A stretch of DNA of 64,000 bases, taken from Ruditapes philippinarum. Its lineage: Eukaryota. Location: the NCBI RefSeq assembly GCF_026571515.1, contig NW_026861540.1:186001-250000 (forward strand), written 5' to 3'. Each line of letters starts with the position of its first letter. Within the stretch, counting starts at the first letter, position 1. Shown here piece after piece: positions 5,425 through 45,009 of this stretch. The notes under the pieces were generated by a model. The model was not told where the DNA came from, made no database searches, and saw nothing but the letters and a program-made list of their open reading frames with translations. The translations under genes and the position numbers were made by a program.

Positions 5425-7678
5425 ATGAAGGTTCTAGCAATACTGGTCGGACTCGTGTGCTGTTCCGGTAAGTGTTACATTTGCAATGCCCTGATTCAAG
5501 TCATTTAAGGCACATCAAACCTAGGATATTAAAGGCCCAATATGCCCTAATATACTTTTATTTTTATTGCTTAAAAACGATTTATTCTTGGTTTCTTGTT
5601 ATTGTTTCCCAAAATGTTACTTATAAGCAATTTACCTGAACCATTTTCTGCCTCTGTTTCTTTTTGAGAATTAGTACAGATATAGCTATTTAGTACTTTG
5701 TATGAAAGTTGAAATACTAAGCTGTTTACATTTTGCTATCTTTATGACAAAAAAAATATTAATCGCACATAACATGTAAATTATTACTTGAATATTGGAG
5801 CATTTTACTTTTCTAAACAGCTTAGGAACATTTTTTCCCAAAATTAATTTTCTTCAAATATTACGGCTCATATATTGTGTATTTTCAACAGTTTCCTGGA
5901 AAAACTATCCCCTTTTTCGTGTAAAAACACTGAGTATCTTATAAGTATTGATTGAGAAGAAATAGAGTAATCTTATCTTCGATTTTTCACCATGGAATTT
6001 TCATGTTTTCGTTGTTTCGAGTGTGTGTGTGTCGCGATGGCCCTAACAGGACACCGTAGAAAGGGCTAACAAAACACACTAAACGTTGAGGGATATAAGC
6101 AATTATAGTAAACTTATAATCTCGTTTCTAGGATGTTTTGGGGCAACATTTTACCGCTGTCGCTGGATCACCTCCCCCACTGTTAACTGCGACGACTTCT
6201 CCCCAGACCCTACATGCGGAACAAATCTAGTTACATACAAGAACAAGTGAGTGTTGTTCAGGCTGTTGGTAGCTTTTTGTTCATGTATTTTGAAATCGAA
6301 ATCCTTTAAACTTCGAATGTACAGTTTCAGATTTTAAGCTGGTGAAATCTATTATACAAATTCAGCAGGTAAAATGTTTGTATCGCACTTTCGCATCGCT
6401 AATTTTAAGGTACTCACAATAATGATGGATTTTCTTACCATAATTTAGCTCTAACGTCAGCTCTTACGTTGCGTAATCGTTACGTCAATATTTCGAGACA
6501 ATGATGGTTGGAGCGGAACTCCGTAGCTAATACAAGTGTATAAGTGCCAGAATAATTATTAGTAAACGTCGATTACACAATCATAGCATATATAGTAATG
6601 CTTTTTGTTTGTTTGCTTGTTTTTATCGACAAACTATGCAACATATCTGTCGAAGAAGCATCAACTGTAACAACTAAGCAAAGTTCTTAGTATTGGGAGT
6701 ATTTTTACAGAAAAAAAACTCGCACGATCACATTAGATTTGGTCGGTTGGTTACATTCATTAACAGTGAAAATAATTGTTACTGTATTGTTAACGTAAGG
6801 TTTTCGCGGGAACTTTTGATGCCGTATTTCATTTCTTTTCATACTGATCTTACAAAGAATAACCAATTTGAAGAAGTTTTTTAATGGGTTCGAGGTGCTG
6901 CTAATGGAAACTTCTGGAAAATAATTTCTCGAAAGAAATTTATATAAATATTATACATGCATTGTTTCTGTTTCAGATGTGAATTCAGTAAAGCACATTG
7001 TGCCGACAAATCTATTGATCTTAAACATTACGGAGCCTGTACCGCCGCAGACGGCACAACACCGGCTCCTGTCAATGCCGCCGGTTCTGACGTTGTTTTC
7101 GACTTCCTGTGTACAAGTTTAAGCCATATGGATTGTCCAGCAGATGAGGATAAAGTCTGTGCCGATGACGGATACACGTACCAAAACTAGTAAATATTTG
7201 CATAATATATTTTTTTTATCTTTGGGTGACATTATTAGCTTCTTTAAGGAAAATGTATATATCTTGGTTAACGAATCACGCTTAGAAACGAAATTAAGAC
7301 AATATAAATAAAAGTCTGCAAAAATTATCGTGGAATTTTTCCGTCAAAAGACTAAAAGGGATAACCTGACGTTATTCATTTGCCAGGATAGCACCCGCAA
7401 CTTTTGTTCCAACCAGACACCGCCCAACATTTTTGTTCGCATCATTGTTAAACTTTCTAGATAGTGTAATTATATGGTTTTACGTCTTATTCTTTGTTTT
7501 GAGGTTACTTACGAATAATACCTCTTTCTGGTTCCCTTACTTAAAAGAAAAAAAAATGGCTTTAAGAATGTTCACTCATAAATAAGTTAAGACTGTTTTT
7601 TGTTCTTTTTCCAGTTGCGAGTTTGAGAAACAGAAGTGTACCCACCGTGACCTTCAACTTGTTGCCTGCACCGTCTGA
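5425..7678 (+). CDS. Double Kazal-domain inhibitor-like gene, copy 2 (complete, 144 aa). Exons 5425-5467, 6132-6246, 6977-7189, 7615-7678
   Basis: Signal-peptide exon MKVLAILVGLVCCSG. The 435-nt spliced ORF reads ...FYRCRWITSPTVNCDDFSPDPTCGTNLVTYKNKCEFSKAHC...CPADEDKVCADDGYTYQNYCEFEKQKCTHRDLQLVACTV*. Intron phases 1,2,2; AATAAA at 7767-7772. Confidence 0.92.
5533..5960. mobile_element. Kolobok-like MITE (TTAA|AGGCCC...), right end lost
   Basis: Shares its left terminus and the TTAGTACAGATATAG...AAATACTA core with copies at 33444, 40450 and 49775. Confidence 0.55.
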
Positions 7679-9462
7679 TCATCTCACGTGACCTAACCAC
7701 GTGATGTCATTATTGTTTTTCAATTCTGTTTTTATTTTGCATTACTTTTCATATGTGCAAATTTCTAATAAATTAAAACCAAACGTTTGTGTTTATTTTC
7801 TTTTTTCTTTCTTCCTGTTTAAAGGAAGTATCCAAATAATGGTTAAATTGTGTAGATTTTTGTTTCTATGAGTTTCTTTTTAAAAAACACATATAGGTCT
7901 CAAAAGTCATTTTCTTGTTGCAAATTAAATTCACTTTTATAATTTTTACAAAATTTTTCTCTTTAGATGAATCGATGGTAAAGTAGTGTACAATGAAAAT
8001 AAAAAATCTAAGTAATTTAACAAGAGAAACCAGATGAAACATTCCGTATGCATCTATATGAGCACGACTTTAATTCAAGTAAAACCGTAACGAGATCACT
8101 TAGTAATTAAAAACAAAACATTCTCAAATGTAATATTTGGTTGGAAAGTTCATATAACAGCCTTATAATTGACCGTTGTCCTAAATCGAGGTTTAAATAA
8201 TTTCAAACGAATTATATTGTTGTTTTGATTCCTGGTGTTGCTTTAAGTTTGTAACACCCGAAGTTAGCCCAAAACCAACTGTTTCGGTGCCATAGGACCT
8301 AAATTGTGTTAGCTCGCCGTAAAACCAAACTAAATTAGCCAACAAAACAAACTTTCCTATATAGGTCTGCAATGATGATATTCTCTATCTGATAACAGGA
8401 ATTTTAAGATAAGGTCATAGATCTCATGGCTCGTTCACACAGTCTTTCATAACGTCATTACGAATCTCTTTCTATGCTTCCTGAGGGATATGGGACATGA
8501 TAATGAGCACATTTTAAGGTCAGATTGACCGAAATCACAACCGAAAATATTTCAGAAACTTTTACACAATTAGTATGCCTGTCTCTAAGCATGATTAAAG
8601 TGAATTGGTCTGTATTGTAAGGTTTGTAGTACTAATGAATAATAACGCTGAAAGTATTTAACAACAAATCACGCAGGAATTATACATGAAACTTATTTGC
8701 AAGTGTGAGATACATGATCCGATATAGCAAATAATAAAATGGTAATAAAATATTCTAGAACAAAATATTACGTTTGATTATATACATTGTACCTGTTCAT
8801 TATAAGTCACTTAGAAATATATCACTTTTCTTCCAAACAACTTTTTGTAAGAATATCCAAATGGTACATTTCTATTGTTTTTATCAATATTTGAAAAGTT
8901 TGGAGAATTTGTCTATTGTAGACCTATCCGCTTAAAAAAACAACAACAAAAAAACAACAACAAAAAACAAAAACAAAACAGCAAAATTAAAATATTGCCT
9001 TTTCGTTTTAATTGAGCCCATGTTCATAAATGCAAGCTTCCTTCTAAGCACCCTAGCACCGGCTTTAGCAGAACTCGACATTTATACAATTTACATGTAC
9101 ATGGTGAAATTTTGAATTTAGTACAAGCTGCAAATTTAGACATATCCGTCTGTGATGGTCAGCTAGTAACGATGGAACCTTCAATGTTACACTTTTTTTT
9201 ATTTTTTCATGAAAAGAGGCATATGTTCGTTTGAGTCAAATAATGCGCAGAGATAATTAAAATGGAATTTTGACAAGATATAAGAAGTCGCAAAACCATT
9301 TTTATATCAGACCGCAGCCAGAAGACAAATTAAAAAAAAACTAGTACAGAAAAGCTCTGAGCGTAAGTGGAAAAAAATCCCGGTTTCATAAAATGTGTCC
9401 GCGTGAACAGTCCTTTTATTTTATTTATCAAAAATACGGTCACAAACGTGATTTATTTTTTT

Positions 9463-9470
9463 TGACGTCA
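9463..9470 (+). promoter_or_regulatory. Palindromic CRE/ATF site upstream of Kazal copy 3
   Basis: Perfect TGACGTCA ending 67 bp before the ATG at 9538. Motif only; function untested. Confidence 0.35.
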
Positions 9471-9537
9471 CTGAAAAGGCCAAAAAGTGGTTCAGATAAA
9501 TAACAATTTGTCTGCTATAGCAAAAGTAAATACGATA

Positions 9538-12500
9538 ATGAGAATTTTATTCTTCTGTGTCGGCTTCCTTTGTTGTTCTGGTAAGCTTCATAATAATATT
9601 CATATTTCAGTGAAAGAAATTAAACTTATTCATTTCAAAGAATTATTGCTGGGAACCATGTCATTAAGTTGTTCGCTACTTTTTGACATTGGTACATGTG
9701 AAAAGAAAATAGCCCTGAAATTATGGAGGGGAATGTCTGCCATAATTATATGTATCTTGATGACATGATTATAGCTGAATGTTACAAATTAATTTACCGG
9801 TATGTTGATTGCATTCTTATTCATAGATTTGCTAACTGCCATGTAAATGTATACTCCGGATTCATTGCCCATTGCAAATACATGACATTGTTTCATTGCA
9901 CATTTCTATAAATTCTACAGAATTATAAAGCATGTATTCTACACAATAATTTGTCTTCTTTCACAAGACTTAAATCAAAAACAATGGTACCAATTCTGCA
10001 TTAACAATCTTCAATTCTATTCCTTGCAATGGCATATATGCATTTAAAATTATGCATTTCTGTATTTATATCATAGAAGTTGGACTAATGTAAAAACATG
10101 TATAATATGTATGCAATCAACAAACATAGACTGTAACATTCAGGATATGAACATGTTACATATACTTTTGGAGGATATTACTCTTCATACTACTCATCCC
10201 TTCTTTGAGCTGCATGCCTCTTCAATAAGACATATCAGGAACCGTGAGGCAGTTACGTTTTTTTTTACGTCACAGATGAAATCTTTGGTGTATTTAAAAT
10301 AGTTTGTAATAAGGTAATTTTGACTCATTGCGTAGTGGCATGCGCCATTTTAAAAGCTAGCAGAATGTCAACGAGCAAAGTATTTAAATAACGGGAACTG
10401 AAGTGTTTGATCAAACATTTTTACAGTGTTAAACAGAATATGTTGTTAAAATGCATTTTATATGTAAGAAAATGTGAATTCTGTTCTAACATTACAGCAT
10501 AAAATAGAGCACCTTCAGGGGGCCTTCACTGCAGAAATGTGCTAGATGACGCAATGACGCGCGCATTATTTTATTTGTTTAATTTGTGTTATAATAGCCT
10601 AAGTAAACCCGTCGCATTCAGTGCTTTCAGCGCTTTGATCTATACTGCAGTTTTAACGATTATATCAGTTTCTTTTATCATCAAATGAATTCAATGATAA
10701 GTTTCTCATGGAACTTAAAACGTTTCATTTCATTACTACGCAAAATATCCCGTTTATTTGCTTTAAATGTCTGAAATCGGCAGATTGGTACGTGTGCTTG
10801 CGATACCATAGCAGCTCTCGGAATTTTCGAAATTCAATCTCGGTTTTAGGAAAACTCTACAAGATTATCACACCATCTGATATACCTAGGAATTCCGGGT
10901 ACCCTCCACAAAATTTCTAGGGTATATTAAAATTAACAGCAAAGTTATTTATACAAATATTACTTTAATCGAGTAATATTCTCTTGACGATATATAAATC
11001 AAAGCACAGAAGGCGCTGAGTTTGTTTGGGTCTCAGAATGTAAGAAAGGTGCAGGTTGTGAGATTATATGTTTAGTGCCACCAATGCTTTCCAGCGTTTT
11101 ATATTGTAGTAAATTGGCTATAAGACTAATTGCAACACTGATATTCAATCCAATGTTTATTTGACTTTAACAATTTAAAAAAATGAGTAACCTTTACTGG
11201 GATTTGAACTCCAGACCTCTCGCTTCCTAAGCGAGCCCGAAAACCCTTCAGCCACGGTGAATTTATATGTGAACGGCATGAAGAAAACCATATTACATGT
11301 ATTCTAAATTAGGGCTTGTAACGACTTTAACTGTTGTTTAACACAGATGTAAATAATCCTGGAGCTTACTATAAGCATGTATATTTATAAAGAATCAAAC
11401 GGCTGCAAGTTCTGTGGTATTTTCTGATCTTTGCAATCTAAATCGTACTGTATATCTGTATGCATTTTCCTGCATAAGTTTATTTTTATGTATTATAATT
11501 CCTTTTGTAAGGCACCAGAGTTTGATACATACGGAATTCTGCATAACTAGAGTTGCATCAAAAAATCATTTATGTTCTTTTTTTTTACGACAGCCACACT
11601 TTATCTTTGTATATCATGGCTACTTCCTTAACAAAAACACTTAAAAAAAAGAATTTTAACAAAAAAAAAAGTTTCCTCGTCTGGGATTCGAACTCGGGAC
11701 CTCTAACTCACGAGGCGAGCGCGTTACCACTGTACCACGGAGAAGTTATACACAGTGTGTCTGAATAATATCAAGTCATTCTAAATTTAGAACTTCCGTT
11801 GCAGTTCGGGTTTGTAATCCTTATTAATTTCGTGGTATTTTTTCAGGGTAAACCTGTTGTTTGTAATTGAAGTAAATATTTTAGCAAAAATCCTCTCGCC
11901 CAAACGGTCCGGCATGTAGAATCTATATATTCCACTACTCGGTTTGTGTAGTATTCGGTAATCAACATGGCTAAAAATAATATTTTCATTGATAAAATCA
12001 TATTCATCCGCGTAATTTGTGATTGTGCATTTATTGACAATTCTATAAGCCAACGCTATTGTTTAACTTTAAATGCGTTGTAATTTGTTGGATACTTGTA
12101 ACAAAATAAAATATTTCTTTCTTTTAAATCGCTAGTTTTTAGCTGTTTTGAGAACTACTTGTTGTTAGGTTTGTAGCAAACTTCTGCGTCAGAGATTGAA
12201 TGTCCGCTTTGTATATAGTTATTTTCGATCAGAAAATACAATAAAACAATATTAGAAATCTTTGACCATTCGGGAATTACTTTGCTTGAATTGATGCGCC
12301 TGTCTTTGACCATCTTTACGCAGTGATCTCCCCTGAATTTTTCGGCTTTAGTGTACATACATAAGGGAAGTAACCGCTTCAAAAAAGTGGACTACTTTCG
12401 GCATTTGCAATTAACAACATTAGACTCTGAAATTTCGCTACCATTATTTGTTTGGTCTGACGACCCAAACAAATAAAAATCACGTGGGTCGACTTCCTAA

Positions 12501-15500
12501 GCAGAGGTGTTAAAATATAATTGCAATACATTATTTGTTAGCCATGAAAGTCAGTATGTATATAGGACTTTCAAAAACAGTTTTTATTCAGAGCGGGCGC
12601 TATGGTGCAGTGGTAACATTGATTGCCTACCAATCTAGGGATCGTGAGTTCGACCCCCCGCTACTCCACTAATATAATGAAATAACTACGAGACTGGCTA
12701 AACCAAAACATAGAACTCTAGAGACTAAACGAGAAGTACATACAAACAGAGACTAAGCAAAAGACCTAACGGAAAAGAGGAAAAGAGACAAACACGGAAC
12801 AGACAGCAAAAGACATAAGGTCGTCAACCGGCAGATAACAACAAATACTTAACGGAGCATTCTACAAGCCACAGAAATGAACAGACGACAAGACACGAAA
12901 CAGAACAGACAGGACACAATGGCATCAACGATTCAGCAAAGAGCAGGAAAGGAGGACCGATAACAGAAGGACTAACGGAACACCTAATGTAACATACAAC
13001 CAACAAAGAGCCACAGACATACCATACAACAGTCCACTACGGAGTAGTCTACAAGAAACTGAAAACAGAACGGAAAACTCAATACAGTACACATGACAAG
13101 GCACTTGACAGAACAGACAAGAAAAAACTAAAACAGGAAACAAAACGTAATATCCAACAACTAACAGAACAATATAGACGGGAAAGATACATATAATAAA
13201 GTGGTCATAAGAATGACTACGACGTCTAAGACGGATAAAAGTATTGTCACGGAACATATAGCAAGAATAATAACAAAAAATGGGTAACAATTACTTAACG
13301 AGGCTACATTAATTGCACAGACCAGACAAAAGACACGGTGGACGGCATATAAACAGAATAATAGAAGAGAAAACGAGTCACCGAATACGCAACTAAAACA
13401 TTAAAACGAAACTAATATAACTATAGATGATTAATACATGTCTTGACATAAAATAAAAGATAATAGAATAATAGAATCCCTCACGACCGAACAGAAAATA
13501 GGAAACATTAAACGGAACAAAGACACATACAAATAAAAACTTAAAGATATATATACTATGCTACTGAATATGTTTGAATAAAAATAATGAATAAACTATG
13601 TTCCCTGTTACAAGCCAAGTTAAAGATGGTCTTTTCTTTGAAAAAATGCTAGTTTCATAACAAATCTTCTTTGTGTGAGGTCAGAACATATTAATTTTAT
13701 ACTTACAAAGAGACAGTGTAACACTTTGTCAATATCTTTCAATACCAAATTTGAGCCTAGTATATCTTGAAATGACCAATAAGAACGGACTCAACAGAAT
13801 ATACAATTTAAGACTAAACGGGACTTAATATTCAGATAACTAGAAACTTAACTTTAATAAAAAATTAATTGCAGATGTGGTTTTACGTTAATTAATTGTA
13901 TTCTTTCGGGATGCAAAAAGGTTCTTCAATGCATCAACATATCAACAGTTGTACTGTTTCACTTGACACAGATATAAACCAGAGACATAGATAACTATCT
14001 AAGTTATCTACATCTCTGTATAAACACCATTATTATCACGCCCGTTAACATGTTGCGAGCAGGGCAGCTTGATGCAGGTAGAAATTACCATATAAATCTT
14101 AGTTCTTAACCTGATTACCAAAATATAATCTTTTTGTTGTCTCCTTTTATAGACATACTTTTCTATGATGTATCGGCAGCAGTCGATTGCAGAATACAAA
14201 TCTTACACAGCGCACAATTGTTCTACCCGTAAACAACTGATCTTAATGTAACCAGTTAACGGGTGTGTTTTAAGTAAATATTTACAAAATAAAACGTTGC
14301 AACGGTTTAAAATTACAGCAGTATAAACATTGCAAATACTTTAAGTTTTTTTTGTCGGACAAGACATGTATTAATCCTCTAGTTCCATATTAATGTGCGA
14401 GTTTGCAGGTGAAATTTTATCTTTTGATTACATTTTATTTCAAAAACGCCCGAAGAACAAATTGTGGGGTAGTAGCTTATTAATGTATTTCGTACTAATA
14501 ATGTCGCACCACTAAGACTGTGAATAGTTTATGCCTGATGAATGAATACAATCTTGAAAAAAAAAATTGTTTGCATGATTATCTTATTACGTTTTCAGTC
14601 ACTTCCGGTCAGGACTCTTACTCTTGCTACTGGATTATTCAACCAACCGTAGACTGTGACAATTTTGCACCTGAGCCCACATGCGGTTCCAATCTTGTAA
14701 CTTACAAAAATAGGTAAGTAAGTCATGTGCAGTTGTATAGCCCGAATTCCGTGTTCGTTCTAGGGTTAATGCAGCATGTGATCACAGAAATCGAGTATGT
14801 TCGTTTTGTCTGACTTCAAGATTATGTTTCTTTTTCTTGAAGGTCAAGGTCTTGTCTAGTTAGCTCATAATTCTATCCTAAAAGATTGTTTTGTTCAATT
14901 CATTTAAAATTAACAAAGGAATAGCCACAAAAAGCAAAAATCAGCAAAATTTAGACATTTGACCTTGAAGGTCAAGGTCATTTATAAATGAAGGTCAAAC
15001 TTAGTCTAGTCTACTTAAAGATATTGTCCAAAAGATTGTTGTCGCCAAGTATGTAGACATTACTAGACAAGAAACTAAAATTTTTAAAAGTTATGATCAA
15101 GTTATGATCAAGGTTAAACGCCGCCATGACTGTAATAATTCCTCTATTTTTATTTCGAAAATATGTCATACTTATAAATCTAGTTCATGTTTCCATAGCA
15201 ACATTGTGACCATCGAAACATTCACATTCCATATTGTGCAAAAAAAAATATGTAAAATCTACCATTGTACTAAGAGCTTACAGTTTATTTATTTGATAAA
15301 GTTAACAATAGTGCACATTGCAATAATGTAAGCAATTCGGCAAATCTCGCTGTTTTTTGCAGTGTCAAAAGATATGAAATTTTTTAAATTACCATGGAAT
15401 TTTTCGTTTATGAATTCATTTTGTGTTTAAATATCAACACCAACCTTACAAACTCTGGAAGGAAAATAAGTTGGCGTATTTGAGGATAAAAAAACAATAT

Positions 15501-16666
15501 TATGAGACCGAAACATGTTGAATTGAAAAACATGTTGAATTGAAAAATGCTGAATTAAGCTTGGTTGTTATGGTAACCAAATAAATAAAATAATCGCCAA
15601 GTGTGTTCTTGTTTCTGATAAAGCACAAAAATATGAACTTTTACTAAGATTTTGATGAATTTCTGACACGGCAGTTTTTCACTCTTGCTGAACCTAGCGC
15701 TTTGCAAAGAAATGAGCAATGAGGATTTCGCAATCGATCTCAGTAGAATGATGAAGCTCTTTTTTTAGAGGAAGTAGTCACTGAAACGAGAGATGCGCCG
15801 AGTACGTACTGCGTTGCTCCTCTGTGCCGCATGATGTTCTAAAAATAAATGTATCTTCTAAAAATAGATAATTAATTATTAAAGGTGCACGTATAGTAAG
15901 GCTCACTGCGCAGATCCGAAGATATCTGTGAAACATTATGGGGACTGTACTCCTGCTGACGGTACAACACCGACGCCAATAAACGTTGATGGCGTTGACG
16001 TCGTGTTTGACTTCTTTTGCACAAATTTGAGCCACATGAACTGTCCTGTTGGTGGTGAAAAAGTGTGTGCTGATGATGGATATACTTACGCCAATTAGTA
16101 AGTACATGTATAACGTATAAATCTTACAAAACATGAGTGGTTCTATTGTTATTTAGATATTTGATGACATTTTACCCAATGCTTAATGTGTGCATACAAG
16201 TAAACCGTATTTTGACTTATATTGAGATTGGATGTTCCTGATTCGGAGCTGCTCATGTCAAGTCGACAATCGCATCATCTCGGCCCTTTGATAAGAAGTT
16301 ATCATTAAGAATAATAGCCGAGATGTTCCGATTGGTCAAATGGCGACACAAAACGATATGAAACGATAATGAAGTAACACAGTTACTTAGAATGTCTTTT
16401 GTTAATTAAATTTTATTTGAAAAGTACTAGTATATCGTTTCTGGACTATTGTCTTGCTGAAATTGTTTACTTGATCTGTCCCACTTTGAATCGGAACTGT
16501 TCATTGTTCATACAAGGCAGACGATAAAAATGCACGTGCTATTGCCAATATTTCATAAATTCTGAAATAATTGTATGTTTCTTTCAGTTGTGAGTATGAG
16601 AAACAAAAATGCACACATCGTAGGTTGCAAGTTTTAGACTGTCCAGTGGCAGGAGCCACGCCCTAG
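9538..16666 (+). CDS. Double Kazal-domain inhibitor-like gene, copy 3 (149 aa). Exons 9538-9580, 14599-14713, 15885-16097, 16588-16666
   Basis: The first three exon lengths (43/115/213) match copy 2. MRILFFCVGFLCCSVTSGQDSYSCYWIIQPTVDCDNFAPEPTCGSNLVTYKNRCTYSKAHCADPKISVKHYGDC...FFCTNLSHMNCPVGGEKVCADDGYTYANYCEYEKQKCTHRRLQVLDCPVAGATP*. Intron 1 is 5 kb and TE-filled; AATAAA at 16725. Confidence 0.88.
11177..11261 (-). pseudogene. tRNA-Pro(AGG)-derived sequence followed by T7
   Basis: Minus strand reads CTCGC-TTAGGAA-GCGAG-AGGTCTGGAGTTCAAATCCCAG, close to eukaryotic tRNA-Pro from the anticodon arm to the T arm. The acceptor stem does not pair. Confidence 0.6.
11661..11744 (-). pseudogene. Second tRNA-Pro-like cassette followed by T10
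   Basis: Minus strand has A box TGGTACAGTGG and B box GAGTTCGAATCCC; 3' part GAGGTCCCGAGTTCGAATCCCAGACGAGG. Anticodon and T stems are imperfect. Confidence 0.6.
12545..13612 (+). mobile_element. Putative solo LTR (1068 bp) with an internal tRNA-derived head
   Basis: AGCCA(12540-44)|TGAAAG ... TGTTACA|AGCCA(13613-17): TG..CA ends and a 5-bp direct repeat. Two AATAAA lie near the 3' end, and the sharp A-rich/T-poor composition ends at the right boundary. Confidence 0.7.
12596..12668 (+). pseudogene. tRNA-like Pol III promoter cassette inside the putative LTR
   Basis: A box TGGTGCAGTGG (12603-13) and B box GAGTTCGACCC (12646-56) at tRNA-like spacing; cloverleaf stems are degenerate. Confidence 0.65.
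14830..15120. repeat. Degenerate core-repeat remnant (TTGACCTTGAAGGTCAAGGTCA motif) of a Helentron/pearl-like family
   Basis: Repeated palindromic GACCTTGAAGGTC motif; related GTGACCT motifs at ~24740-25140 and ~60640-60860. Confidence 0.4.
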
Positions 16667-16806
16667 TAATTATCACGTGGCACCGGAACAAAGTCACTTG
16701 TCATGTAATCGATGTATCTAATAGAATAAATATGTAAACAATTGTTAATTTGCTATACTAAATAATTTAACGCATTGTTTGATTTGTGTGTTTATAAAAA
16801 TGTCAT

Positions 16807-16999
16807 TTTACGGAGAAAGTAGTCCGAAATAAAGCCTCGGTTAAATTTGTGTATATTTGAAAATATCCTTTTACGCAGAAAGTAGTTCGAAATAATTCCT
16901 CAGTTAAATTTGTGTGTATTTGAAAATATCCTTCATGCAAAAAGTAGTCCGAAATAAATCCTCGGATTATATTTGTGTGTATTTGAAAATATCCTTTAC
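16807..16999. repeat. Tandem repeat, ~62-63 bp x 3
   Basis: AAAGTAGTCCGAAATAA...TTTGTGTGTATTTGAAAATATCC occurs three times. Confidence 0.85.
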
Positions 17000-18044
17000 C
17001 GATATAAATCCTAGGAGGTGGTAAGAAAAAATGTGATCCATCGGAAGAAATAAAAACAACAATAGTGTATGGAATGAGTCTGTTCATGTGAAATAATGTC
17101 AAAGCGCAATACCTTATCATTTGTACGCCATCAAGCACCGGCTTAAGCGGTCTGGAAATCTTCAACAGCCACGTGTGGAATAAATGATCCTGAAAGACTA
17201 GAAAAAAGTAACGTCACTATAAGGTTGTAAAGATCATACATTGTACTTTACAAAGAAGTTCTATTAACTGCTTTGTTATTAAAAACCCAGGAAAAGGGTA
17301 ATTCCGTCGAAGCATTAATCACATTAAAATTACATGAAATTTGCAGAGTCGGTTTGATTGAGTATGTACATAGGGATAGTGAAAAAGCGCATCATCCCCA
17401 TGCCTTTCTATCACCGGCTTTTGTCGTATATATTTTAATATATGTACACACCAATACTCCTACTTTGATAATTAGATTGAAAAACAGAAAGAAGCAAATA
17501 GCAACCAGTAGAAAGAAAAGTAGGTGTGTTCTTTTTAAAACCTTTCTTGACTTGACCTTACTTTGCGAGGACCACTTTATGTCACAAACTATTGATAAGG
17601 AAAGAAAGTTGGACTATATGAGAACTTATGCTCGCTACATAAAATACCAATTTTATAATAATAAAGATGCATTACCTCGTGCATTATGAGCAAATAAGTA
17701 AAAGTCATAGGAATAGTGCATTCTATACATACATGTATTTCCGTTGAATCTGTGTCAGGCGTTTTCACTATTTTATTTATTATTATTTTTCGTTTTTTGA
17801 GCAGCCATAGAATCCTGTCATTTACAGGACTTAAAATTTTCTATCCTTCTTCTTCTTAAAAAAAAAAGAATATTTGAGCGGGAACATAGACATATACAAA
17901 AATGTAGATGTGATTAAAATTGCTTTGCAGATAAATGATTTATGGAAAAGTACCTTTTAAAAAGGCATTTTAAGATTAATTGTTTTTGTAGCTATACAGC
18001 GATTTTTTGATAATACAAATGCATGGTCAACAAAGGTTAACCAA

Positions 18045-18235
18045 TAGACCGGGTGGTTATGGTTGTTGACATCAAACCACTCGTCTCTCACCGCTGTTGA
18101 TTCGAATCCCGACAGGAATGTGGATTCTTTCATGTGAGGAAGCTATCCAGCTAGCTTACGGATCGTCAGTGGTTCTTATCAGGTGTCCGTCACCATATGA
18201 CAATATTCTTTGTTGGTGTGACGTAAAACTCGTTA
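18045..18235 (+). mobile_element. tRNA-derived SINE, family A (internally deleted)
   Basis: B box GATTCGAATCCC, body GAGGAAGCTATCCAGCTAGCTTACGG...GTGGTTCT, tail GTTGGTGTGACGTAAAAC. Shared with copies at 22045, 42702 and 45920. Confidence 0.7.
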
Positions 18236-18864
18236 AAGAAACTTGGTCTCACAGCTAAGATTCATAACTCAAAACCGCTACGTTTGTAAATGAAAATGCA
18301 GTTATTTCCCTTTGACAATAAAAATTAATATAGCATTCGTTTGTAAATATCATAATCAATAACATGTATTTCTATATCCCTTATGCTTCACATTGTCAGG
18401 AAAAATACATGTCTGACCTATGTAAGACAGTTTAAAAAAATAAACATCTAAAGAAATTCCAAACTGTCCGGGATATGAAGTCTTATAAGTTTATGTCTGC
18501 CATTACACTTGCATGTGATATTTACTTTATTATCGCTCTTTTAATTACTTCTTTTTGAACGTTTCATCATCAGACGATAACTGTTAAATAAATCTTTTAC
18601 AGCTTAATCATTTTCAAGACAGATAATCGCCAGCATATTAGTGGTCGCCAACCTTATTTTGATAAAAACCGTCCAGGAACAAAATGGCTGCTGTTTTAAC
18701 ATTCAAATATAAAGTGTACATTTCAAAATTGGAGCTTTTTAAAATAAACAAATGTTATCAAGTATAAGAATTTTTTTTTTAATAAAAGGTTCAATAGGTT
18801 AAAGAATTGTGACTAAATATGGATTTAAAAACCCTTATCTTTAAGACTTATGGGATGAGATCTC

Positions 18865-18870
18865 TATAAA
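18865..18870 (+). promoter_or_regulatory. TATA box of Kazal copy 4
   Basis: TATAAA starting 49 bp upstream of ATG 18914. Confidence 0.55.
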
Positions 18871-18913
18871 GATAACGAGTTCAACACATTTGAACAACAG
18901 TTCAACAAATTAA

Positions 18914-21900
18914 ATGAAGTACGGAAAGAGGACGATGTTTGTTTTACTAGCTGCGATTTTGTGTTGTTTTAACGGTAAATATGAAAGCGTTTTTATATCT
19001 ATATTCAACAAGATAAAGTGTCACATAGTAAGAGACAGGGACTCGAATCCGAGACTATCGGTAAACCGTTCCGGAGCGCTAACAACTGGGCTATTTGGCC
19101 GCTTCCTTAATAAGTGAACTGTTCTATACCGTTGATTGGTCATTACCCACAAGTTGGTCCCAACCCCCGCTCCTTTCCCATAGCATATAAACTGAAATGT
19201 TTTTCATGTAAAAAACGGTGGTTGAACTGCACTCTGGTAAATTCAATGCGGCTTACTACCGTGATCCATAGTGAAAAATGCCAACACCACAACATGCAAA
19301 ATGCGTTTAAATATTTGGTATATGATATTTCATTTCCCGATTTCTTTTTTTTTAAATAATTATAAATTTTCTTTTATTTAGGACAACTCATTCAATTTTC
19401 TTCAACACCCCTACCATTAATTATCATATATCAAATTTTGCATAAAAAAAACTGCATATTTAACTTCTTAGGAAAGATAGGACTTAGTTTATACTTATTT
19501 ATTTTAGTTCGATTGTGTTGGAAGCTATAAGCTTATTGAAACACTCTCAAACCCACTAGTACTTAGCAATGGGTGTAAAGTGTATTTTTCACGGACAGGG
19601 TTTGAGCAATTCTTAGATTACTAATTTGACGCGTTTACCACTCGGTAGCACCGATATGTAATGCTGTGTTCTCACCGCCGATCAGATCAACTCGATCAAG
19701 TGATCGGGTACCGGTCTAGCTCGGTCTGCATGCGTGGTCAGGGGTGGTCGGAGCGGTCTACCTTGGTCGGCATGGCTCGGGCTTCCTACCAGATTTTTTT
19801 TGACATGTCAAAAAAACTCGAGTAGCGATCGAGTAGATAAGCGGTCCAGAAGCGATCGTATAGTGATCGAGTAGAAGATCTAGTTGATCGAGAATAAATC
19901 GTGTAATGATCTAGTTTGATCGGGTATACATGATATTACCCGATCTGTACACGATCATCTCGACTTCTACTCGAGCATTATCCGATCGCAACCCAATCAA
20001 CTCTACCTCTGTTCGATCTATTGTCCAGAATAACTAGACTACTATCCGACTGCTACACGACCACACACGATCGCTTCCCGATAGTTATTCGACCATACAC
20101 GAGTTTACGTGACCTTAACAATATATAGATGTAAACTTATTGTTGGTATCTTATTAGCTGTTACAAATTTGAAGATAGAGCAACTTCCAAATTCTGACAA
20201 CAAAAATGTCCAGAAAGGGCAAAAAGGCAACATGCAGTACGAGTAGTAGGACCATCTGGACCGCAACTGCAACTGCTCAATCTCCGCCATGAACTAATGT
20301 GAACTTAGATTGTATTCTAAACAATTCGATACACGACTATTCACGACGCAATTACGATAATTACGATCTGGTCGGATGGGAATCTGGCAACGATCGAGCA
20401 GAGGTCAAGTTAGTCTAGTTGAGATCGTGTATGACTCGCGTATAGGTCTGGGTGATCGAGAAGAAGTCGGGGTGTTGGTCGGGTTGTCGTCGAGATGAAG
20501 TCGTATTACATCGTGTAGGGTCGACTTGAGGTCGTGTAGGACTCGTGAATGTGCATTTAATCTAGCTTGGTCGGACTTCATCGGGGAATTAATGTGATCG
20601 GGACGATAGAGTTGATCTGATCGGCGGTGAGAACAAAGTATAAGGGTTGTAGGGGGTGGTTGTGGTAGTGACCGGTCAACGGGTACACAGTATTATGATT
20701 TATCTTTTTATTGAAGGAGTTGTGAACGGCGACATTTACTACTCATGTTCCTACATCAACACTCCCAGTGTGGACTGTAGTCGATTTTCTGATGATTTAA
20801 CCTGTGCAACCAACCTTGTCACATACAAAAACAAGTAATTTACGTCCTGTACTATTAATTTTGATTTTATTATTTTATTCGTTGATTCAAGCGATTTTAA
20901 ATTTAGGAAATGGCGTTACTTCCGGATATCTATAGCAACTTCCGGTACAGAAATAAATTACATGAGTTGGTCGTTTAAAAAAAGGTTTCCCGTATGATAA
21001 TTGTTGTCTGGTTCTCATTATCATACCATTCAAATAAATTAATAGGGACAACACTTCGTACCTAGAAAGTTTGGTGACTAGTAATAGATCATTTCAACGG
21101 GATATAGGTTCAGATGTCTGGATTCTAATGTACAACTAATACTTTACATCTCTAACATACGTTGTGCAAGATCTTTTATACAATTAATTAAAAGTGATTT
21201 TTTTCTTGAAACTTGAAACTTCTTCTTTTGTAGATGCGAATTCAGTAAAGCCCATTGTCGTGACAGCACAATTGATATAAAGCACTACGGAAATTGCACA
21301 AGTGCTGATGGCACAACACCTGCACCCATAAATGGAGCAGGGTCTGACCACGTTCTCGACTTCTTTTGTACACATCTAAGTCACACTAACTGTCCGGTCG
21401 GAGGGACTAAAATCTGTGCTTCGGACGGGCGAATCTATGACAACGCGTAAGATATTATTTTTTTCTGTATATTTAGAGCACATACACCTTGTGATTTTAC
21501 GTCTATCATTTCCAATCGTATTATTTTTATAGTGTTTTTTATTTGGTCTCCGTAAAAAAATATTTCGATGGCTAATAGGCGAACTAACTAAATGGCCAAT
21601 TTAATTTGCAAATATGTCGTGCAAAATTAGTTTAAATTTACAATTTTAAAGCTCTACATTTGTTGATCAGATATTGACAAAATACTATAGTGCTGCACGC
21701 GGTATTTTAATCATGTCCATTTAGGAATGGGATGATCATTTAGGGATGGGATGGTCATTTAGGGATGGGGTGATCATTTAAGGATGGGATGGGGTTGGGG
21801 TGGTCCAAAAACTGCATATTTTTACTCGAAGATTATCAAGCCGAATATCATATGAAGGCAATTTGTGTCCATTGTAGATGTTTATTGATTTTTAATCGTG

Positions 21901-38653: not shown

Positions 38654-41386
38654 ATATCCTCATAAGTCCAAACAATGATGACATAATTATTCCAATCAGT
38701 GCCACTTTCGACAGAGTTGCATTACATATTGGTATTGGAAATGGACGAGGAATCTTTATAGAGAAGCCTGATGTTAAAGATGGGAAAGAAATCAAAACAT
38801 CAGTCAAACGTGCTACCCAGAAGTTTATGAAAAGAATGTATAAAGGAATAGCTAAAAATGAGAATGCTATAGAAAGTAAACTTGAAGAATTAAGAAAGCC
38901 TTTGGTCGAAGATGAAGATAAGTTTATCGGAGACATTTCAAACAGACACGATATTGACAGATACTTGCTTCGGTATGTTTACTCATTTTATGGTAAGACA
39001 ATATCGAAAGCTGCAAAGGGATTGTCAAAAAATGGACTACTTTTAAGACAAGCTCAATCCGAAGATGTTAGAAGTGTCATTGACAGCATGCATGCCGCAT
39101 TGGAAATGGAAATGGTTTCTATACCAGGTATTAGAAATATTTCATTACTAAAACCCAAGCAAGACTTTAAAGGCCCGACTGTACCAAATATGAATATTGA
39201 TATGAAATTGTACTCGCGTCCTAATTACAGTTTCAATGCAACAAACGCCGCTGTTTCATTGGACAGACAATCTTTAGATACAATTGATATAGATTATCAA
39301 AATGAAATGTTAGCAATTTTAATTGACGCTGAAACAGGTATAAGTCGAGCTTTTTTGAATTTTTTGACACCTGAATTTCAAATTGGGTCATTTTCGATAA
39401 ATGCAAACGACACGAACTTTGAAGAAGATTTTGAAAAGTCAATGCAAGATTCCCAAATGTTTAGTGAAGTAACATTATTGACAATAAAGGGACAGGAACA
39501 AAACTACAAAGGAGCACGTCAAAAACTGAGAGAAAGACGTCAAAAACTGAGAGAAAGACGGAAAAATAACAAAACCTACACAATTAATGACGTCTCATTT
39601 TCAAAGCAGCCCTGCTTCATTGAGAAATATGTTATGATTAATTATCTAAGCGAAGGCCGAGTTGCAGAAAATGACGATATCGACGAAGCCTACATTTCAG
39701 AAACTGACAATGTAGAAATTGAAACAGCAGAATATGTCACTTTACTATCTGAAGGAGCAATACCAGCGGAAGTTGATGAAAAGGATAGTGGTATACTATC
39801 CATTGGAAGTGATCAATCAGAATTCTTAACATTTGACACATTTCAAACTGTGTCAGGTGAAGCAATTACTCACAAAGAAGAGAAAGGAATGACATTAGAC
39901 AATGTTCCACAGACTAGTAATGCAAATTTAGAAGAATTGTCACATGGCATTGTTGTTGAGAAAGAGTTATACAACAGAAAGGAATGCATAGAATCAGATA
40001 ACGCAAATAAAAATTTCGTAACTGATGAGGCAAGAGTAAATATAGAATTCGAACCAGAAGAAGCAGCTGCCGATATAGAACGAATAGCTATCAGAGATAA
40101 TATTGAAGCAGATGAAACAGCTGAACAGAATAGAGCCGTTGATATTTCCTCTGACGAAGACGATGAGTGTGACGATGATGATAGCATCTTTGGTATCTTG
40201 ACAATCTACAAACAGAGTGGTCTTCACTGTGAACTAAACAAAGCTAACGAAGACGATGAGTGTGACGATGATGATAGCATCTTTGGTATCTTGACAATCT
40301 ACAAAAGGAGTGGTCTTCACTGTGAAATAAACAAAGTAAGTTTTGTATACTCAGATGACTGGTGTTTTTAACCTTTAGTTCCGAAATTTAAGCTCTCTCT
40401 ATATATATAATGTATTTTGCACTTTAGCAAATATTTATTCAATTTTTGAAGGCCCATTATGCCTCAGAAATTATATCATTTTTATTTCTGAAAATCTGTT
40501 TATTTTTGGTATCTTGCTACAGTTTCCAAAAATATACTCATTTGTTATATATCTGAAATATCTTTTGCATCTTTAGCTCTGTTGGCAGTTATTATAATCA
40601 TAGGGAATTAGTATTTTTTTACGGAAGTCAAAATACTACTTCATTTACAATTTGCTACCTTCACGACACATAGCTGCATGTTCAGCGCTACTTTTTAGGT
40701 TGTAAAACATCTAAACATGCTCTTAAACTATAATTTAAACATTCTTAAAGACATTTTTAAAAAACATAATGTGCCTCTAAGCAATTTAATAAAGCATATC
40801 TTTTTTTCGGAAAACGAAAACTTACAGTTAAACACATACCTGTATAACAATCTTTATTATAAACATGTACTAATAAATAAAATAATGAGAAATATTGATG
40901 AAATAAAATAGGTATTTTCATTTTCTGTATTTTCACTGTAAAAATCTGTCACTGCAATGAAACATATTTTCCGTATATTCATCGGTGTCTTGCTGGACTA
41001 CTTTATCCTTAATTCAGCCAAAACTCAAAATTTTAGTGAAAAGTTTTCAAATTATGATGTAAAAAAGAGAAAATAGACAGAAATTTATTCTTTTCTATAA
41101 ATATAGGATTTATTTTCATCTTGTGACACGAAAATCATCATATTTCACTCATGGCTACAACCACTCGTGAAATATTTATTTTCATGCCACTCGGTGAAAA
41201 AAATCCTGTATTTATAGAAAAAAACTTGAATATGCTCTATGTGTTTTATAGACGTTGCAACAAACAAATGACCCCGATGAGTTACCGTAGATTTAAATAT
41301 TCATCATACATTCGTTGTATTTTCAGGCTGCAATAGATAAAGACTTCGGATACAGATTCTTTTCTTTGTCAACTTTCTATAGATAA
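38654..41386 (+). CDS. Uncharacterised protein gene: large exon 38654-40335 plus terminal exon 41327-41386; 5' exon uncertain (best candidate 32940-32994, giving 598 aa)
   Basis: 1.7-kb open frame in AT-rich DNA, bounded by acceptor TTTTGTTTTCAG and donor AAA|GTAAGT (phase 0). The next acceptor TATTTTCAG gives AAIDKDFGYRFFSLSTFYR*. No family recognised. Confidence 0.65.
40450..40776. mobile_element. Kolobok-like MITE
   Basis: AGGCCCATTATG ... CATAATGTGCCT TIRs; family core GTCAAAATACTAC. Confidence 0.6.
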
Positions 41387-42822: not shown

Positions 42823-43545
42823 AAAAATAATCTCACAATCAGGCACAGTCTCAAAGAAACGGAGTACTGTGAAATTTTTTCTTTGAACTAAGAGAATCAT
42901 CCACTTTCGACACTTTTAAATGAATATTTTCCGACAAAACGTACTTCAAAATTTATATGTTAATGATGCAAGATAAATAATAAGTTTCCTTTTAAAGCGT
43001 GACCAAACCCGTTATTCAGTTAAAGTTAACATTAACGTTTATTGCATATCCTAGGCAGATCATTCTTCAAAACTGACAGGGGAATTCCACACACGAAATG
43101 ACGAAGACATAGATATGGAATAACACACTTAAATGGATTTCATAGCATTTTTTTGAGAACTATTTTACGACATTTGAACCAGCCTTGAAAAGTAAATATA
43201 ATTTTTCCCCTTATTACTTTATGATGTTACACAATTTCTATCCATATATTTAGGTTTCATAGTTGACTATCTTGTTTATTCCCTCCCTCCATTATTTTTG
43301 AAGTGCAATGGGATGACAATGGAAGGTCTTTTCTACCATAGTGTTTCTATATATAACAGATAATCAATTCTGAAAGAACAAAACATTATATGTCCATACA
43401 AAAATCTCCTGGAACTTTATCAGCATTGTTTTAAATATCTTGAATATATGAAGTTTAAGGTTCGTAAACTTTGGTTTGTTTTATGCTGAATTTCAGCCAA
43501 GTCAGTTTGAAATACCTCAAAACAAAACGAAAAGAAACAAAACAA

Positions 43546-45009
43546 AACAAGCAAATTCGTTGAAGTTATGTCCCCCGCCGAGTACTGGTTATTACTAACA
43601 CACTAACACAACAACTGAAGACATAAGGCTTTATTTATATATTTATCATGGCATAAACAGTAATATTTTTTGTACTTGATAAATATTCAGGGCACTAACA
43701 GAGCCATAACTGTGTTAAATAGTAATATCTGGACATGCCAATGAGATGTAAATTGCCTTTGTGTATCCATGGTTGAAATCAATACAGCAGTTGCAAAGAA
43801 ATAGCAATATTGCTTTATATGCATACTACATAACTAATCAAGGGTCATAACTCTGTAATGAAGGGTCTGGTCTGAACAACTTCAACAAGGCAACAATATG
43901 CACATCTCCTCTTGGTATTAATGGTTCCCATAAAGTTTAATTGAATTCCAGCCAGTAGTTGATGAGAAGTCGCGCGGAAACAATTATTGCTCTATATGCA
44001 TACTGCATAACTAATCAAGGGCCATTACTATGAGTTAAAGTGTCTGACAGGAACAAGGCGATGATATGCGCATCTCCTCTTTGTATTGAAGGTTCCCATA
44101 AAGTTCGCTCTATATGCATACTGCATAACTAATCAAGGGCCATAACTCTGAGTTAAAGTGTCTGACCAGAACAAGCCAACTATATGCGCATCTCCTCTTG
44201 ATATTGATGATTCCCATAAACTTTTGTTGAATTCCAGCCAGTAGTTGCAGAGAAGTAGCGCGGAAACGAATATTGTTCTATATGCATACTGCATAACTAA
44301 TCAAGGGCCATAACTCTGAGTTAAAGTGTCTGACCGGAACAAGGCGACGATATGCGCATCTCCTCTTGGTATTGAAGGTTCCCATAAAGTTTTGTTGAAT
44401 TCCAGCCAGTAGTTGCAGAGAAGTAGCGCGGAAACGATTTTTTGCTCTATATGCATACTGCATAACTTATCAAGGGCCATAACTCTGAGTTAAAGTGTCT
44501 GACAGGAACAAGGCGACGATATTGGCATCTCCTCTTGGTATTGAACGTTCCCATAAAGTTTTGTTGAAGTCCAGCTAGTAGTTGCAGAGAAGTAGCGCGG
44601 AAACGATCTTTGCTCTATATACATACTGCATAACTAATCAAGGGCCATAACTCTGAGTTAAAGTGTCTGACCGGAACAAGGCGACGATATGCGCATCTCC
44701 GCTTGGTATTGAAGGTTAACATAAAGTTTCATTGAATTCAAGCCAGTAGTAGCAGAGAAGTAGTGCAGAAACGAATATTGTTCTATATCCATACTGCATA
44801 ACTAATCAAGGGCCATAACTCTGAGTCTAAGGGTCCGACTGGAACAAGCTGACGATTTGAGCATTTCCTCTTGATATTGATGATTTCAATAAAGTTTCGT
44901 TTAATTCCAAGCAGTAGTTGCAGAGAACTAGTCCGGAAACGAAATTCGGACGGACGGACGGACAACGCCAAAACAATATCCCCCTCCCAATTCCATCGGC
45001 GGGGGATAA
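43546..45009 (+). mobile_element. pearl/Helentron-associated (HINE-like) element with a central array of 168-bp repeats
   Basis: 5' TCCCCCGCCGA is the inverted complement of 3' TCGGCGGGGGA. AAGGG(C/T)CAT units at 43840, 44017, 44135, 44303, 44472, 44640 and 44808; (CGGA)4 microsatellite; 3' hairpin ATCCCCC...GGGGGAT. Confidence 0.8.

What the first reader, a model, noticed from the sequence alone, without database searches (positions are those of the whole stretch)
12545..13612. Solo-LTR-like element with a tRNA-derived Pol III promoter and ~1 kb free of Pol III terminators
Seen: TG...CA ends flanked by a 5-bp direct repeat (AGCCA), and an A-box/B-box tRNA-like cassette ~50 bp inside the 5' end. 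After the cassette there is no TTTT in the element and no TTT until 13573, although T-runs are dense elsewhere in the window. A T5 run lies just upstream of the cassette (12581-85), and the first downstream T4 is outside the element (13632). Known: Pol III stops at runs of four or more T; small-RNA-bearing LTRs exist in short TRIMs (Cassandra with 5S; Helenus with tRNA-like sequence, recalled as 4-bp TSD in animals). Inference: this is an unusually long LTR with a 5-bp TSD whose strand bias was shaped by Pol III read-through, i.e. a possible Pol III-driven LTR retroelement or ~1-kb Pol III RNA family.
Basis: partly seen in the sequence, partly recalled or inferred. Interest (0 to 1): 0.75.

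Follow-up and report, generated by a model that had tools for sequence, protein, structure and literature searches.

The report
tRNA-promoter repeat, not a solo LTR
The stretch is not a self-contained terminal repeat: its supposed left end lies inside a common repeat of this mollusc (likely a clam) that carries a tRNA-type promoter look-alike, and a minority of copies continue into a long thymine-poor tract that would let RNA polymerase III read on, which is untested.

Summary
The letters are as described, but 12545-13612 is not an element. Contigs from other loci (84-87% identical) run straight across 12545. Nearly all read AGCCA-TT there, not AGCCA-TG, so the left "TSD" and TG end are internal family sequence. 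The same 5-mer also closes a 322-bp pseudo-LTR at 12866. The upstream T5 is private to this copy. The lack of TTTT is expected from 15-16% T (P 0.5-0.9). What is real: a high-copy repeat with at least 115 bp of shared upstream sequence plus an A/B-box cassette. Most RNA reads leave the alignment right after the B box; a minority of copies run on into a fast-evolving A-rich, ACRG-rich body. Its T-poverty starts at the cassette and ends in an LTR-like ...CCCTGTTACA. The true left end is likely cut off by nested Helentron-type insertions (11000-12479). Best reading (0.4): a long variant of a Helenus-like Pol III-promoter LTR. Membership is not shown: no TSD, second LTR, PBS or PPT. RNA depth tracks copy number and shows no discrete transcript. 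No genome was held, so the ends remain open.

The parts
12480..12593 (+).
   Evidence: bridging contigs; 151 RNA reads loose before 12503, agreement 0.95
12540..12546 (+). AGCCA + TG: internal family sequence, not TSD plus LTR end; others read AGCCA-TT
   Evidence: 12546 G>T at 390 of 422 depth (21 contigs, X3); T put in after 12544 at 721 of 923 depth (X9) and in 167 of 295 RNA reads
12581..12585 (+). T5 private to this copy
   Evidence: 12583 T>A at 10392 of 10637 (X3), 3467 of 3601 (X9), 859 of 905 RNA reads
12594..12669 (+). Decayed tRNA-like cassette; A box 12603-12613, B box 12648-12656; the high-copy part
   Evidence: fold z -0.66; no ARAGORN or Rfam call; depth peak
12670..13561 (+). 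A-rich, T-poor, ACRG-rich body; shared in patches by tens of contigs up to about 12920, near single-locus depth from 12924 to 13553
12830..12911 (+). Conserved block in the body, joined to the post-cassette region in other copies across variable spacers; holds a second CA|AGCCA at 12866
   Evidence: tables 2, 5
13562..13612 (+). Terminal block: TGTTT (13571), AATAAA (13590), LTR-like ...CCCTGTTACA; shared to about 13600 by a few other contigs; link to the cassette in other copies not shown
   Evidence: depth 130 against a mid-body mean of 31 in X3
13613..13617 (+). Right AGCCA; no matching AGCC(A)|TG left end between 7100 and 12544
11000..12479 (-). Outer Helentron-type (HINE) insertion abutting, and likely interrupting, the family; subTIRs 11021-32 and 12462-73; carries its own A/B cassette (11254, minus strand) with a T-run
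   Evidence: (61 contigs loose behind 12479, agreement 0.4)
11393..12239 (-). Inner HINE-like insertion with its own A/B cassette (11737, minus strand; ARAGORN tRNA-Thr 11671-11744) and T-run
   Evidence: inverted arms 11409-29 and 12227-47; loose ends before 12240 match 11363-92
9581..14598 (+). Host context: inferred intron 1 (about 5 kb) of the third of four tandem Kazal-type inhibitor paralogues
   Evidence: exon calls from sequence pattern only

Best explanation
The stretch is the right-hand part of one decayed copy of a high-copy repeat with a tRNA-type A/B-box cassette, likely the long terminal repeat of a non-coding, Helenus-like retroelement, whose true left end lies left of 12480 and is likely cut off by a nested Helentron-type insertion. 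Shown: copies share at least 115 bp upstream of the cassette; most diverge right after the B box, apparently into a T-run; a minority continue into a modular, indel-rich, T-poor body. Inferred mechanism: Pol III would start at the cassette of one LTR, and the RNA would be copied by a Gypsy-type partner. [quoted passage not shown] In the long variant the piece between cassette and LTR 3' end likely grew by slippage of ACRG/A-rich simple sequence. Only expansions without a T-run would have stayed transcribable, which would explain why the bias begins at the cassette. This copy is likely dead (B box C at 12654 where others have T, broken T-stem, interrupted upstream part).
For: Shared upstream region and continuity across 12545. 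Change point of T content at 12688 (range 12624-12720), i.e. at the cassette's 3' end; upstream T is normal at 33%. Spacers of other copies are T-poor too: 23 T in 148 letters and no TTT over the 8 distinct inserts in the 9 rows table 5c (hand count; one may be an allele of this locus). Right end ...CCCTGTTACA: 15 of the 31 bivalve Helenus LTR ends visible end in GTTACA, and 17 of 31 have T4 or longer after the B box (hand counts), like the majority variant here (652 RNA reads loose behind 12653, T-run in the majority line, agreement only 0.48). AATAAA followed within 30 nt by TGT[T/C]ACA occurs once in the window, here (chosen after the fact).
Against: No LTR 5' end, TSD, second LTR, PBS or PPT was found. 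Bivalve Helenus LTRs are 104-193 bp with 4-bp TSDs (51 of 51 families); the longest of all is 323 bp; this unit is over 1130 bp. None of the 15 joints shown (of 43) links cassette or body to the terminal block, and depth there fades near 13600, before 13612. T-run depletion does not exceed composition. AATAAA occurs 5 times in the body, 4.1 expected. RNA depth follows DNA depth (Spearman 0.90, 30 bins), reads run across the predicted Pol III start, 4 of 1521 reads are 99% or more identical, and no start or end pile-up is seen. Two neighbouring cassettes ride in DNA transposons, not LTRs.
Confidence: 0.4

Rival explanations
1. A non-autonomous DNA transposon (Helentron/HINE or TIR type) that carries a tRNA remnant as cargo; the body is a long eroded GTCY-type microsatellite read on the minus strand, and T-poverty is a by-product of simple-repeat expansion, unrelated to Pol III.
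For: Two adjacent HINE-type elements carry A/B cassettes plus T-runs. The body holds 30 ACRG and 0 CYGT in 769 bp, against a background mean of 3.7 and a maximum of 9 in 81 tiles; ACGG z 4.3 and ACAG z 3.4 against dinucleotide shuffles. Oyster HINEs carry eroded GTCY/GTCC microsatellites (PMC7492417 passages). 13424-13458 matches the start of another HINE-like repeat at 14347-81 in reverse (83%, E 1e-4). DNA transposition also explains the shared upstream sequence.
Against: No subTIR pair or 3' stem-loop framing the unit among the 25 longest of 402 inverted pairs listed. HINE microsatellites are described as short. It does not explain the LTR-like right end.
Confidence: 0.25
2. A long Pol III RNA family (SINE-like or gene-like): the cassette drives a transcript of about 1 kb that ends at the weak TGTTT (13571) or at TCTTTT (13630), and T-poverty is kept by selection for read-through.
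For: The bias starts at the cassette. The only TTT is in a TGTTT context inside the shared terminal block; TGTTT gave 20% termination in mammalian cells (PMC8466645 passages).
Against: A SINE would not share at least 115 bp upstream of its promoter. No poly(A) tail or long TSD. AATAAA lies after, not before, TGTTT. Mid-body RNA depth averages 0.57 in X21, and X23 gave 7 reads in all; these libraries may miss Pol III RNA.
Confidence: 0.12
3. Terminal-repeat region of a tyrosine-recombinase (DIRS/Ngaro-like) retrotransposon that includes a tRNA-like segment.
For: A frameshifted stretch at about 9630-9780 reads ...LWRG.../...MYLDDM..., like reverse transcriptases of this group (recalled). These elements make no TSD (recalled). 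An earlier unchecked note reports Ngaro-like elements in this genome (e1-8652761).
Against: Pfam gave no hit for either frame at E up to 1. The fragment is 1.2 kb and several other repeats away. No split or inverted terminal repeat was found.
Confidence: 0.1
4. One reading: a solo LTR at 12545-13612 with a 5-bp TSD.
For: TG, CA and AGCCA are present; 12545 is the only TG preceded by AGCCA left of the right end.
Against: 5 of 16 pieces shown and 4 of 32 (two records likely the same in both) are other loci bridging 12545 by 31 or more letters on each side. TG is not conserved. A second CA|AGCCA lies at 12866. The right flank after AGCCA does not continue the family, so it is not a nested self-insertion. 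No empty-site joint among those shown (15 of 43; 15 of 157).
Confidence: 0.04

Closest known systems
Helenus (TRIMp3), bivalve families (Kojima 2024, PMC10886601)
   Same: tRNA-like A/B boxes inside a repeat with shared upstream sequence; non-functional cloverleaf; T-run often after the B box; ...GTTACA 3' end; hundreds of copies
   Different: Helenus LTRs are 104-193 bp in bivalves (at most 323 overall), the cassette sits near the LTR end, TSD is 4 bp, and there are two LTRs with PBS and PPT. Here about 950 bp follow the cassette and none of these marks was found. No focal-specific motif matched the Helenus consensus file except a generic B-box word in fungal LTRs and one A-rich word near the end of Helenus-1_MiYe. 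The paper kept only TRIMs under 1000 bp and says further Repbase LTRs hold tRNA-like parts.
Cassandra and Ajax (5S-derived TRIMp3; as described in PMC10886601)
   Same: Pol III promoter inside an LTR; Cassandra is transcribed from the 5' LTR cassette to the 3' LTR cassette; Ajax makes 5-bp TSDs
   Different: 5S-derived, 421-860 bp in total; no long T-poor segment described in the text read
HINE / DINE-1 non-autonomous Helentrons and oyster Cg_HINE (PMC4067079, PMC7492417)
   Same: Fits the neighbouring nested elements (subTIR plus IR, 3' stem-loop, T-rich site); GTCY-type microsatellite resembles the body's ACRG enrichment
   Different: No subTIR or stem-loop frame found for the focal unit; 'tRNA' does not occur in the main text of PMC7492417
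T+ SINEs B2, Dip, Ves (PMC8466645)
   Same: tRNA-type promoter, AATAAA and a short terminator near the 3' end
   Different: Short, mammalian, AATAAA precedes the terminator, poly(A) tail, no shared upstream region
biv-TRIM (PMC6934838)
   Same: Non-coding repeat of clams with solo terminal repeats
   Different: 202-218-bp repeats; no tRNA-type promoter in the repeats in the part read; no sequence comparison made

Membership tests
Solo LTR at 12545-13612 | Both ends shared among copies, flanks differ | tested here: not met
   Left end bridged by other loci; TG not conserved
Solo LTR at 12545-13612 | TSD varies between copies and is not element sequence | tested here: not met
   Left AGCCA is family sequence; same 5-mer after CA at 12866
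Helenus (TRIMp3) | tRNA-like sequence with A and B boxes in the repeat | tested here: met
   conserved across copies, B box GTTC; paper criteria
Helenus (TRIMp3) | LTR with TG...CA ends | tested here: inconclusive
   Right end LTR-like; left end not found among 59 TGT starts in 8300-11000
Helenus (TRIMp3) | 4-bp TSD (animals) | tested here: inconclusive
   No AGCC|TG between 7100 and 12544; true left end unknown and possibly decayed
Helenus (TRIMp3) | Two LTRs with PBS and PPT between them | not testable with these tools
   None at this locus; no genome held; contigs too short
Helenus (TRIMp3) | Short: LTR at most 323 bp, element 311-1263 bp | tested here: not met
   This copy spans more than 1130 bp from 12480 to 13612; length of the majority variant unknown
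HINE (focal unit) | SubTIR pair plus 3' stem-loop at the ends | tested here: inconclusive
   None among listed inverted repeats; left end unknown; one 35-bp match to a HINE-like start
HINE (neighbour 11000-12479) | 12-bp subTIRs, IR next to the 5' subTIR, 3' stem-loop, T-rich site, high copy | tested here: met
   criteria (3' stem-loop weak, -2.6 kcal/mol)
tRNA-derived SINE | Element begins at the tRNA head | tested here: not met
   At least 115 bp upstream is shared by copies
Pol III transcription unit | RNA starting at the cassette, one strand, ending at a T-run | tested here: inconclusive
   No start or end pile-up; both directions equal, library strandedness unknown; depth tracks copy number

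The most novel reading that the evidence does not exclude
A Pol III-driven LTR lineage of clams in which the segment behind the tRNA promoter has grown to about 0.9 kb under a ban on T-runs, giving an LTR over 1.1 kb, at least six times any bivalve Helenus LTR: a transposon whose base composition is written by the Pol III termination signal.
Probability: 0.2. Interest if true: 0.6.

Novelty: new variant of a known kind. Interest (0 to 1): 0.3.

Why it matters
If true, it would break the length limit proposed for Pol III-promoter LTR elements (PMC10886601) and give a clean natural test of terminator avoidance: short variants with a T-run after the B box against long T-poor variants in one family. 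As it stands it is mainly a caution: TG...CA plus a 5-bp repeat is easily found by chance in nested repeats, and a T4-free kilobase says nothing beyond low T content.

Tried and rejected
No whole genome was held. No second copy in the window (BLAST). Pattern scans: viral contigs 0, genome contigs 0, metagenome contigs 0 and 1; the one hit, L001, is an unrelated 171-bp tandem tRNA-headed repeat with no BLAST match to the cassette. Rfam 0 at E up to 1. Motif searches of supplements: Helenus file 0 of 6 terms and 3 of 6 generic ones; 8 files of PMC11481361 0 of 4 terms. The shared word TGAAAGTCAGT with Helenus-4B_SaGl was rejected, as those letters differ in other copies. A real LTR start at TG 12508 was rejected: copies continue left of it. 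The body as a TRIM internal region: no PBS after the cassette, no PPT before the end. Reverse-oriented LTR with the T5 as part of an AATAAA: that T is private to this copy. ORFs in the body are low-complexity; the longest (120 aa) had no Pfam hit. The sigma-70 scan is irrelevant to a eukaryote. No periodicity in the body. Paper searches for tRNA-type promoters in Helentrons (0), DNA transposons (0), DIRS (2, not read) and Ngaro (6, listings only, none on point) found no description; Repbase and Dfam could not be searched. Earlier-finding look-ups by place, sequence, relatives and words gave nothing for this stretch.

Full report
Setting. The window is animal DNA of about 32% GC. The runs that hold the stretch are of one coded organism, with small shares in mollusc metagenomes. 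Earlier unchecked notes call it a venerid clam; I did not test that. No genome was held, so other copies were seen only through short contigs and reads laid on the stretch, whose tables are cut to the best rows. The stretch lies in the inferred 5-kb first intron of one of four tandem Kazal-inhibitor paralogues.

Observation. TG (12545), CA (13612), the two AGCCA, T5 at 12581-85, TTT at 13573 and T4 at 13632 are all there, as is an A/B-box cassette at 12603-12656, too decayed for ARAGORN or Rfam (fold z -0.66). The missing TTTT carries no information beyond composition: P(0) is 0.52-0.67 (mono) and 0.78-0.90 (di) over three boundary choices; zero TTT in 12670-13572 has P 0.058 and 0.23; CC is more depleted (15 against 25, P 0.002) than TT (14 against 17.5, P 0.16). 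The T-poverty is real: AT skew 0.54 against 0.01 +/- 0.06, with change points at 12688 (12624-12720) and 13540 (13412-13552). The body is enriched in ACRG (30 against 0 on the other strand; background maximum 9 in 81 tiles).

The left end is not an end. Of 16 pieces shown (738 more hidden), 5 are contigs at 84-87% identity that bridge 12545 by 39-72 letters on the left; one search shows 4 such among 32. The locus's own allele has 1 difference in 399. In other copies AGCCA is followed by TT: G>T at 12546 in 390 of 422 depth (X3), or an extra T after 12544 (721 of 923 in X9; 167 of 295 RNA reads). The T5 is broken by an A in 95-98% of depth or reads. 151 RNA reads clipped at 12503 continue leftwards with one shared sequence (agreement 0.95) that matches 12480-89 and puts a TATA-like word in front. 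In the window, 12479 is the end of a very high-copy HINE-type element (61 contigs loose there, agreement 0.4; subTIRs, IR and stem-loop; criteria from PMC4067079 passages). Its other end, at about 11000, is preceded by TATATAAA, as expected if it inserted into the family's TATA-like word; this link is inferred from 6-8 AT-rich letters only. The 'TSD' is then a chance match: such frames arise in 2-16% of random window pairs, and CA|AGCCA also occurs at 12866.

The family. Depth falls in steps (X3): 5,900-19,500 over 12546-12671, 90-450 over 12672-12923, 14-48 over 12924-13553, 130 at 13554-95, where single-locus pieces have depth 8-16. The tool warns that depth is no copy number; as orders of magnitude this means hundreds, tens, one to three, and several. 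Contigs with other letters number 12-30 per run at 12673-12733 and 12877, but 0-3 at 12943-13382. Joints link the post-cassette part to blocks at 12794-12948 in colinear order across variable spacers, and these spacers are T-poor as well (23 T in 148 letters, no TTT; hand count, table 5c). In RNA, 910 reads cover 12641 but 136 cover 12654; 652 are clipped behind 12653 with a T-run in the majority line. Agreement is 0.48, so this may be a terminator, variable sequence or simply the element's end among T-rich flanks. The terminal block 13562-13600 is shared by a few contigs (6 loose before 13562, agreement 0.85); no shown row tests 13612 or links this block to the cassette.

Expression. X21 (about 4% read) gave 1521 reads, 4 at 99% or more, both directions equal, no start or end pile-up; X23 (about 6% read) gave 7. 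RNA depth follows DNA depth (rho 0.90, 30 bins); the RNA/DNA ratio is lowest in the mid-body (0.018) and highest at the terminal block (0.25). This fits intronic or background signal from many copies. Such libraries may miss Pol III RNA, so it does not exclude transcription.

Mechanism. Shared sequence upstream of a Pol III promoter excludes a plain SINE and leaves LTR regeneration or DNA transposition. I favour a Helenus-like LTR (0.4): the right end resembles bivalve Helenus LTR ends (15 of 31 end in GTTACA), T4 follows the B box in 17 of 31 (hand counts), and the bias starts at the promoter, as read-through would predict. Every step beyond the anatomy is inferred, and the defining marks (left TG, TSD, second LTR, PBS, PPT) were not found. 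A HINE or TIR carrier with an eroded GTCY-type microsatellite (0.25) is a serious rival, since the two neighbouring cassettes ride in such elements. A long Pol III RNA (0.12), a YR-retrotransposon repeat (0.1) and the original solo LTR (0.04) follow; the rest is unassigned, including a chance composite of several repeats. The cassette's loop reads CT-ACC-AA and resembles tRNA-Gly (recalled, not tested).

Literature seen. PMC10886601: parts 1-5 of 6 of the text and supplement parts 1, 6 and 11 of 11, plus term searches; it confirms 4-bp TSDs for animal Helenus, lists bivalves only from Pteriomorphia, and says longer tRNA-bearing LTRs were left out. PMC6934838: part 1 of 5. PMC4067079, PMC7492417, PMC6238403, PMC8466645: passages only. 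PMC11481361: listing and supplement term search. Other papers: listings only. Searches for tRNA-type promoters in Helentrons, DNA transposons, DIRS and Ngaro found no description. Repbase, Dfam, unread supplement parts and bioRxiv supplements may hold this family.

Verdict. Observation partly confirmed; the solo-LTR and 5-bp-TSD reading is refuted; a tRNA-promoter repeat family with an unusual long T-poor variant remains. New variant of a known kind, membership unproven. Interest 0.3; most novel reading 0.2 likely, worth 0.6.

Noticed in passing
window 327-21444: Four tandem paralogues of a Kazal-type protease inhibitor gene on the + strand (51-70% exon identity); signal-peptide-like exons at 5425, 9538 and 18935; intron 1 is about 0.66, 5.0 and 1.7 kb in copies 2, 3 and 4. 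Pfam Kazal hits are below the curated cut-off.
   Followed up: partly
window 11000-12479: Two nested HINE-type elements on the minus strand, each carrying a tRNA-like A/B cassette followed by a T-run; with the focal one, three Pol III-type cassettes lie within 1.5 kb.
   Followed up: partly
window 9630-9780: Frameshifted stretch resembling a reverse-transcriptase YLDD region of DIRS/Ngaro type (recalled); no Pfam hit.
   Followed up: partly
window 10598-10644: Inverted match to the 3' end of the outer HINE, probably the end of another copy on the + strand.
   Followed up: no
   Followed up: no
window 13656-13762, 13925-14167, 14249-14990: Further multi-copy repeats right of the element (depth), including HINE-like starts at 14346 and 14800.
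   Followed up: no
window 12545-12573: Perfect 8-bp inverted repeat TGAAAGTC...GACTTTCA in this copy; its left arm differs in other copies.
   Followed up: partly
window 39300-40340 and 43544-44970: A second, weaker T-poor tract (T4-free for 743 bp), and a 1426-bp A4-free tandem array of 168-bp units.
   Followed up: no
L001 408-750: Two head-to-tail 171-bp copies (95%) of a tRNA-headed repeat ending in T-runs; resembles a plant SINE (recalled); unrelated.
   Followed up: no
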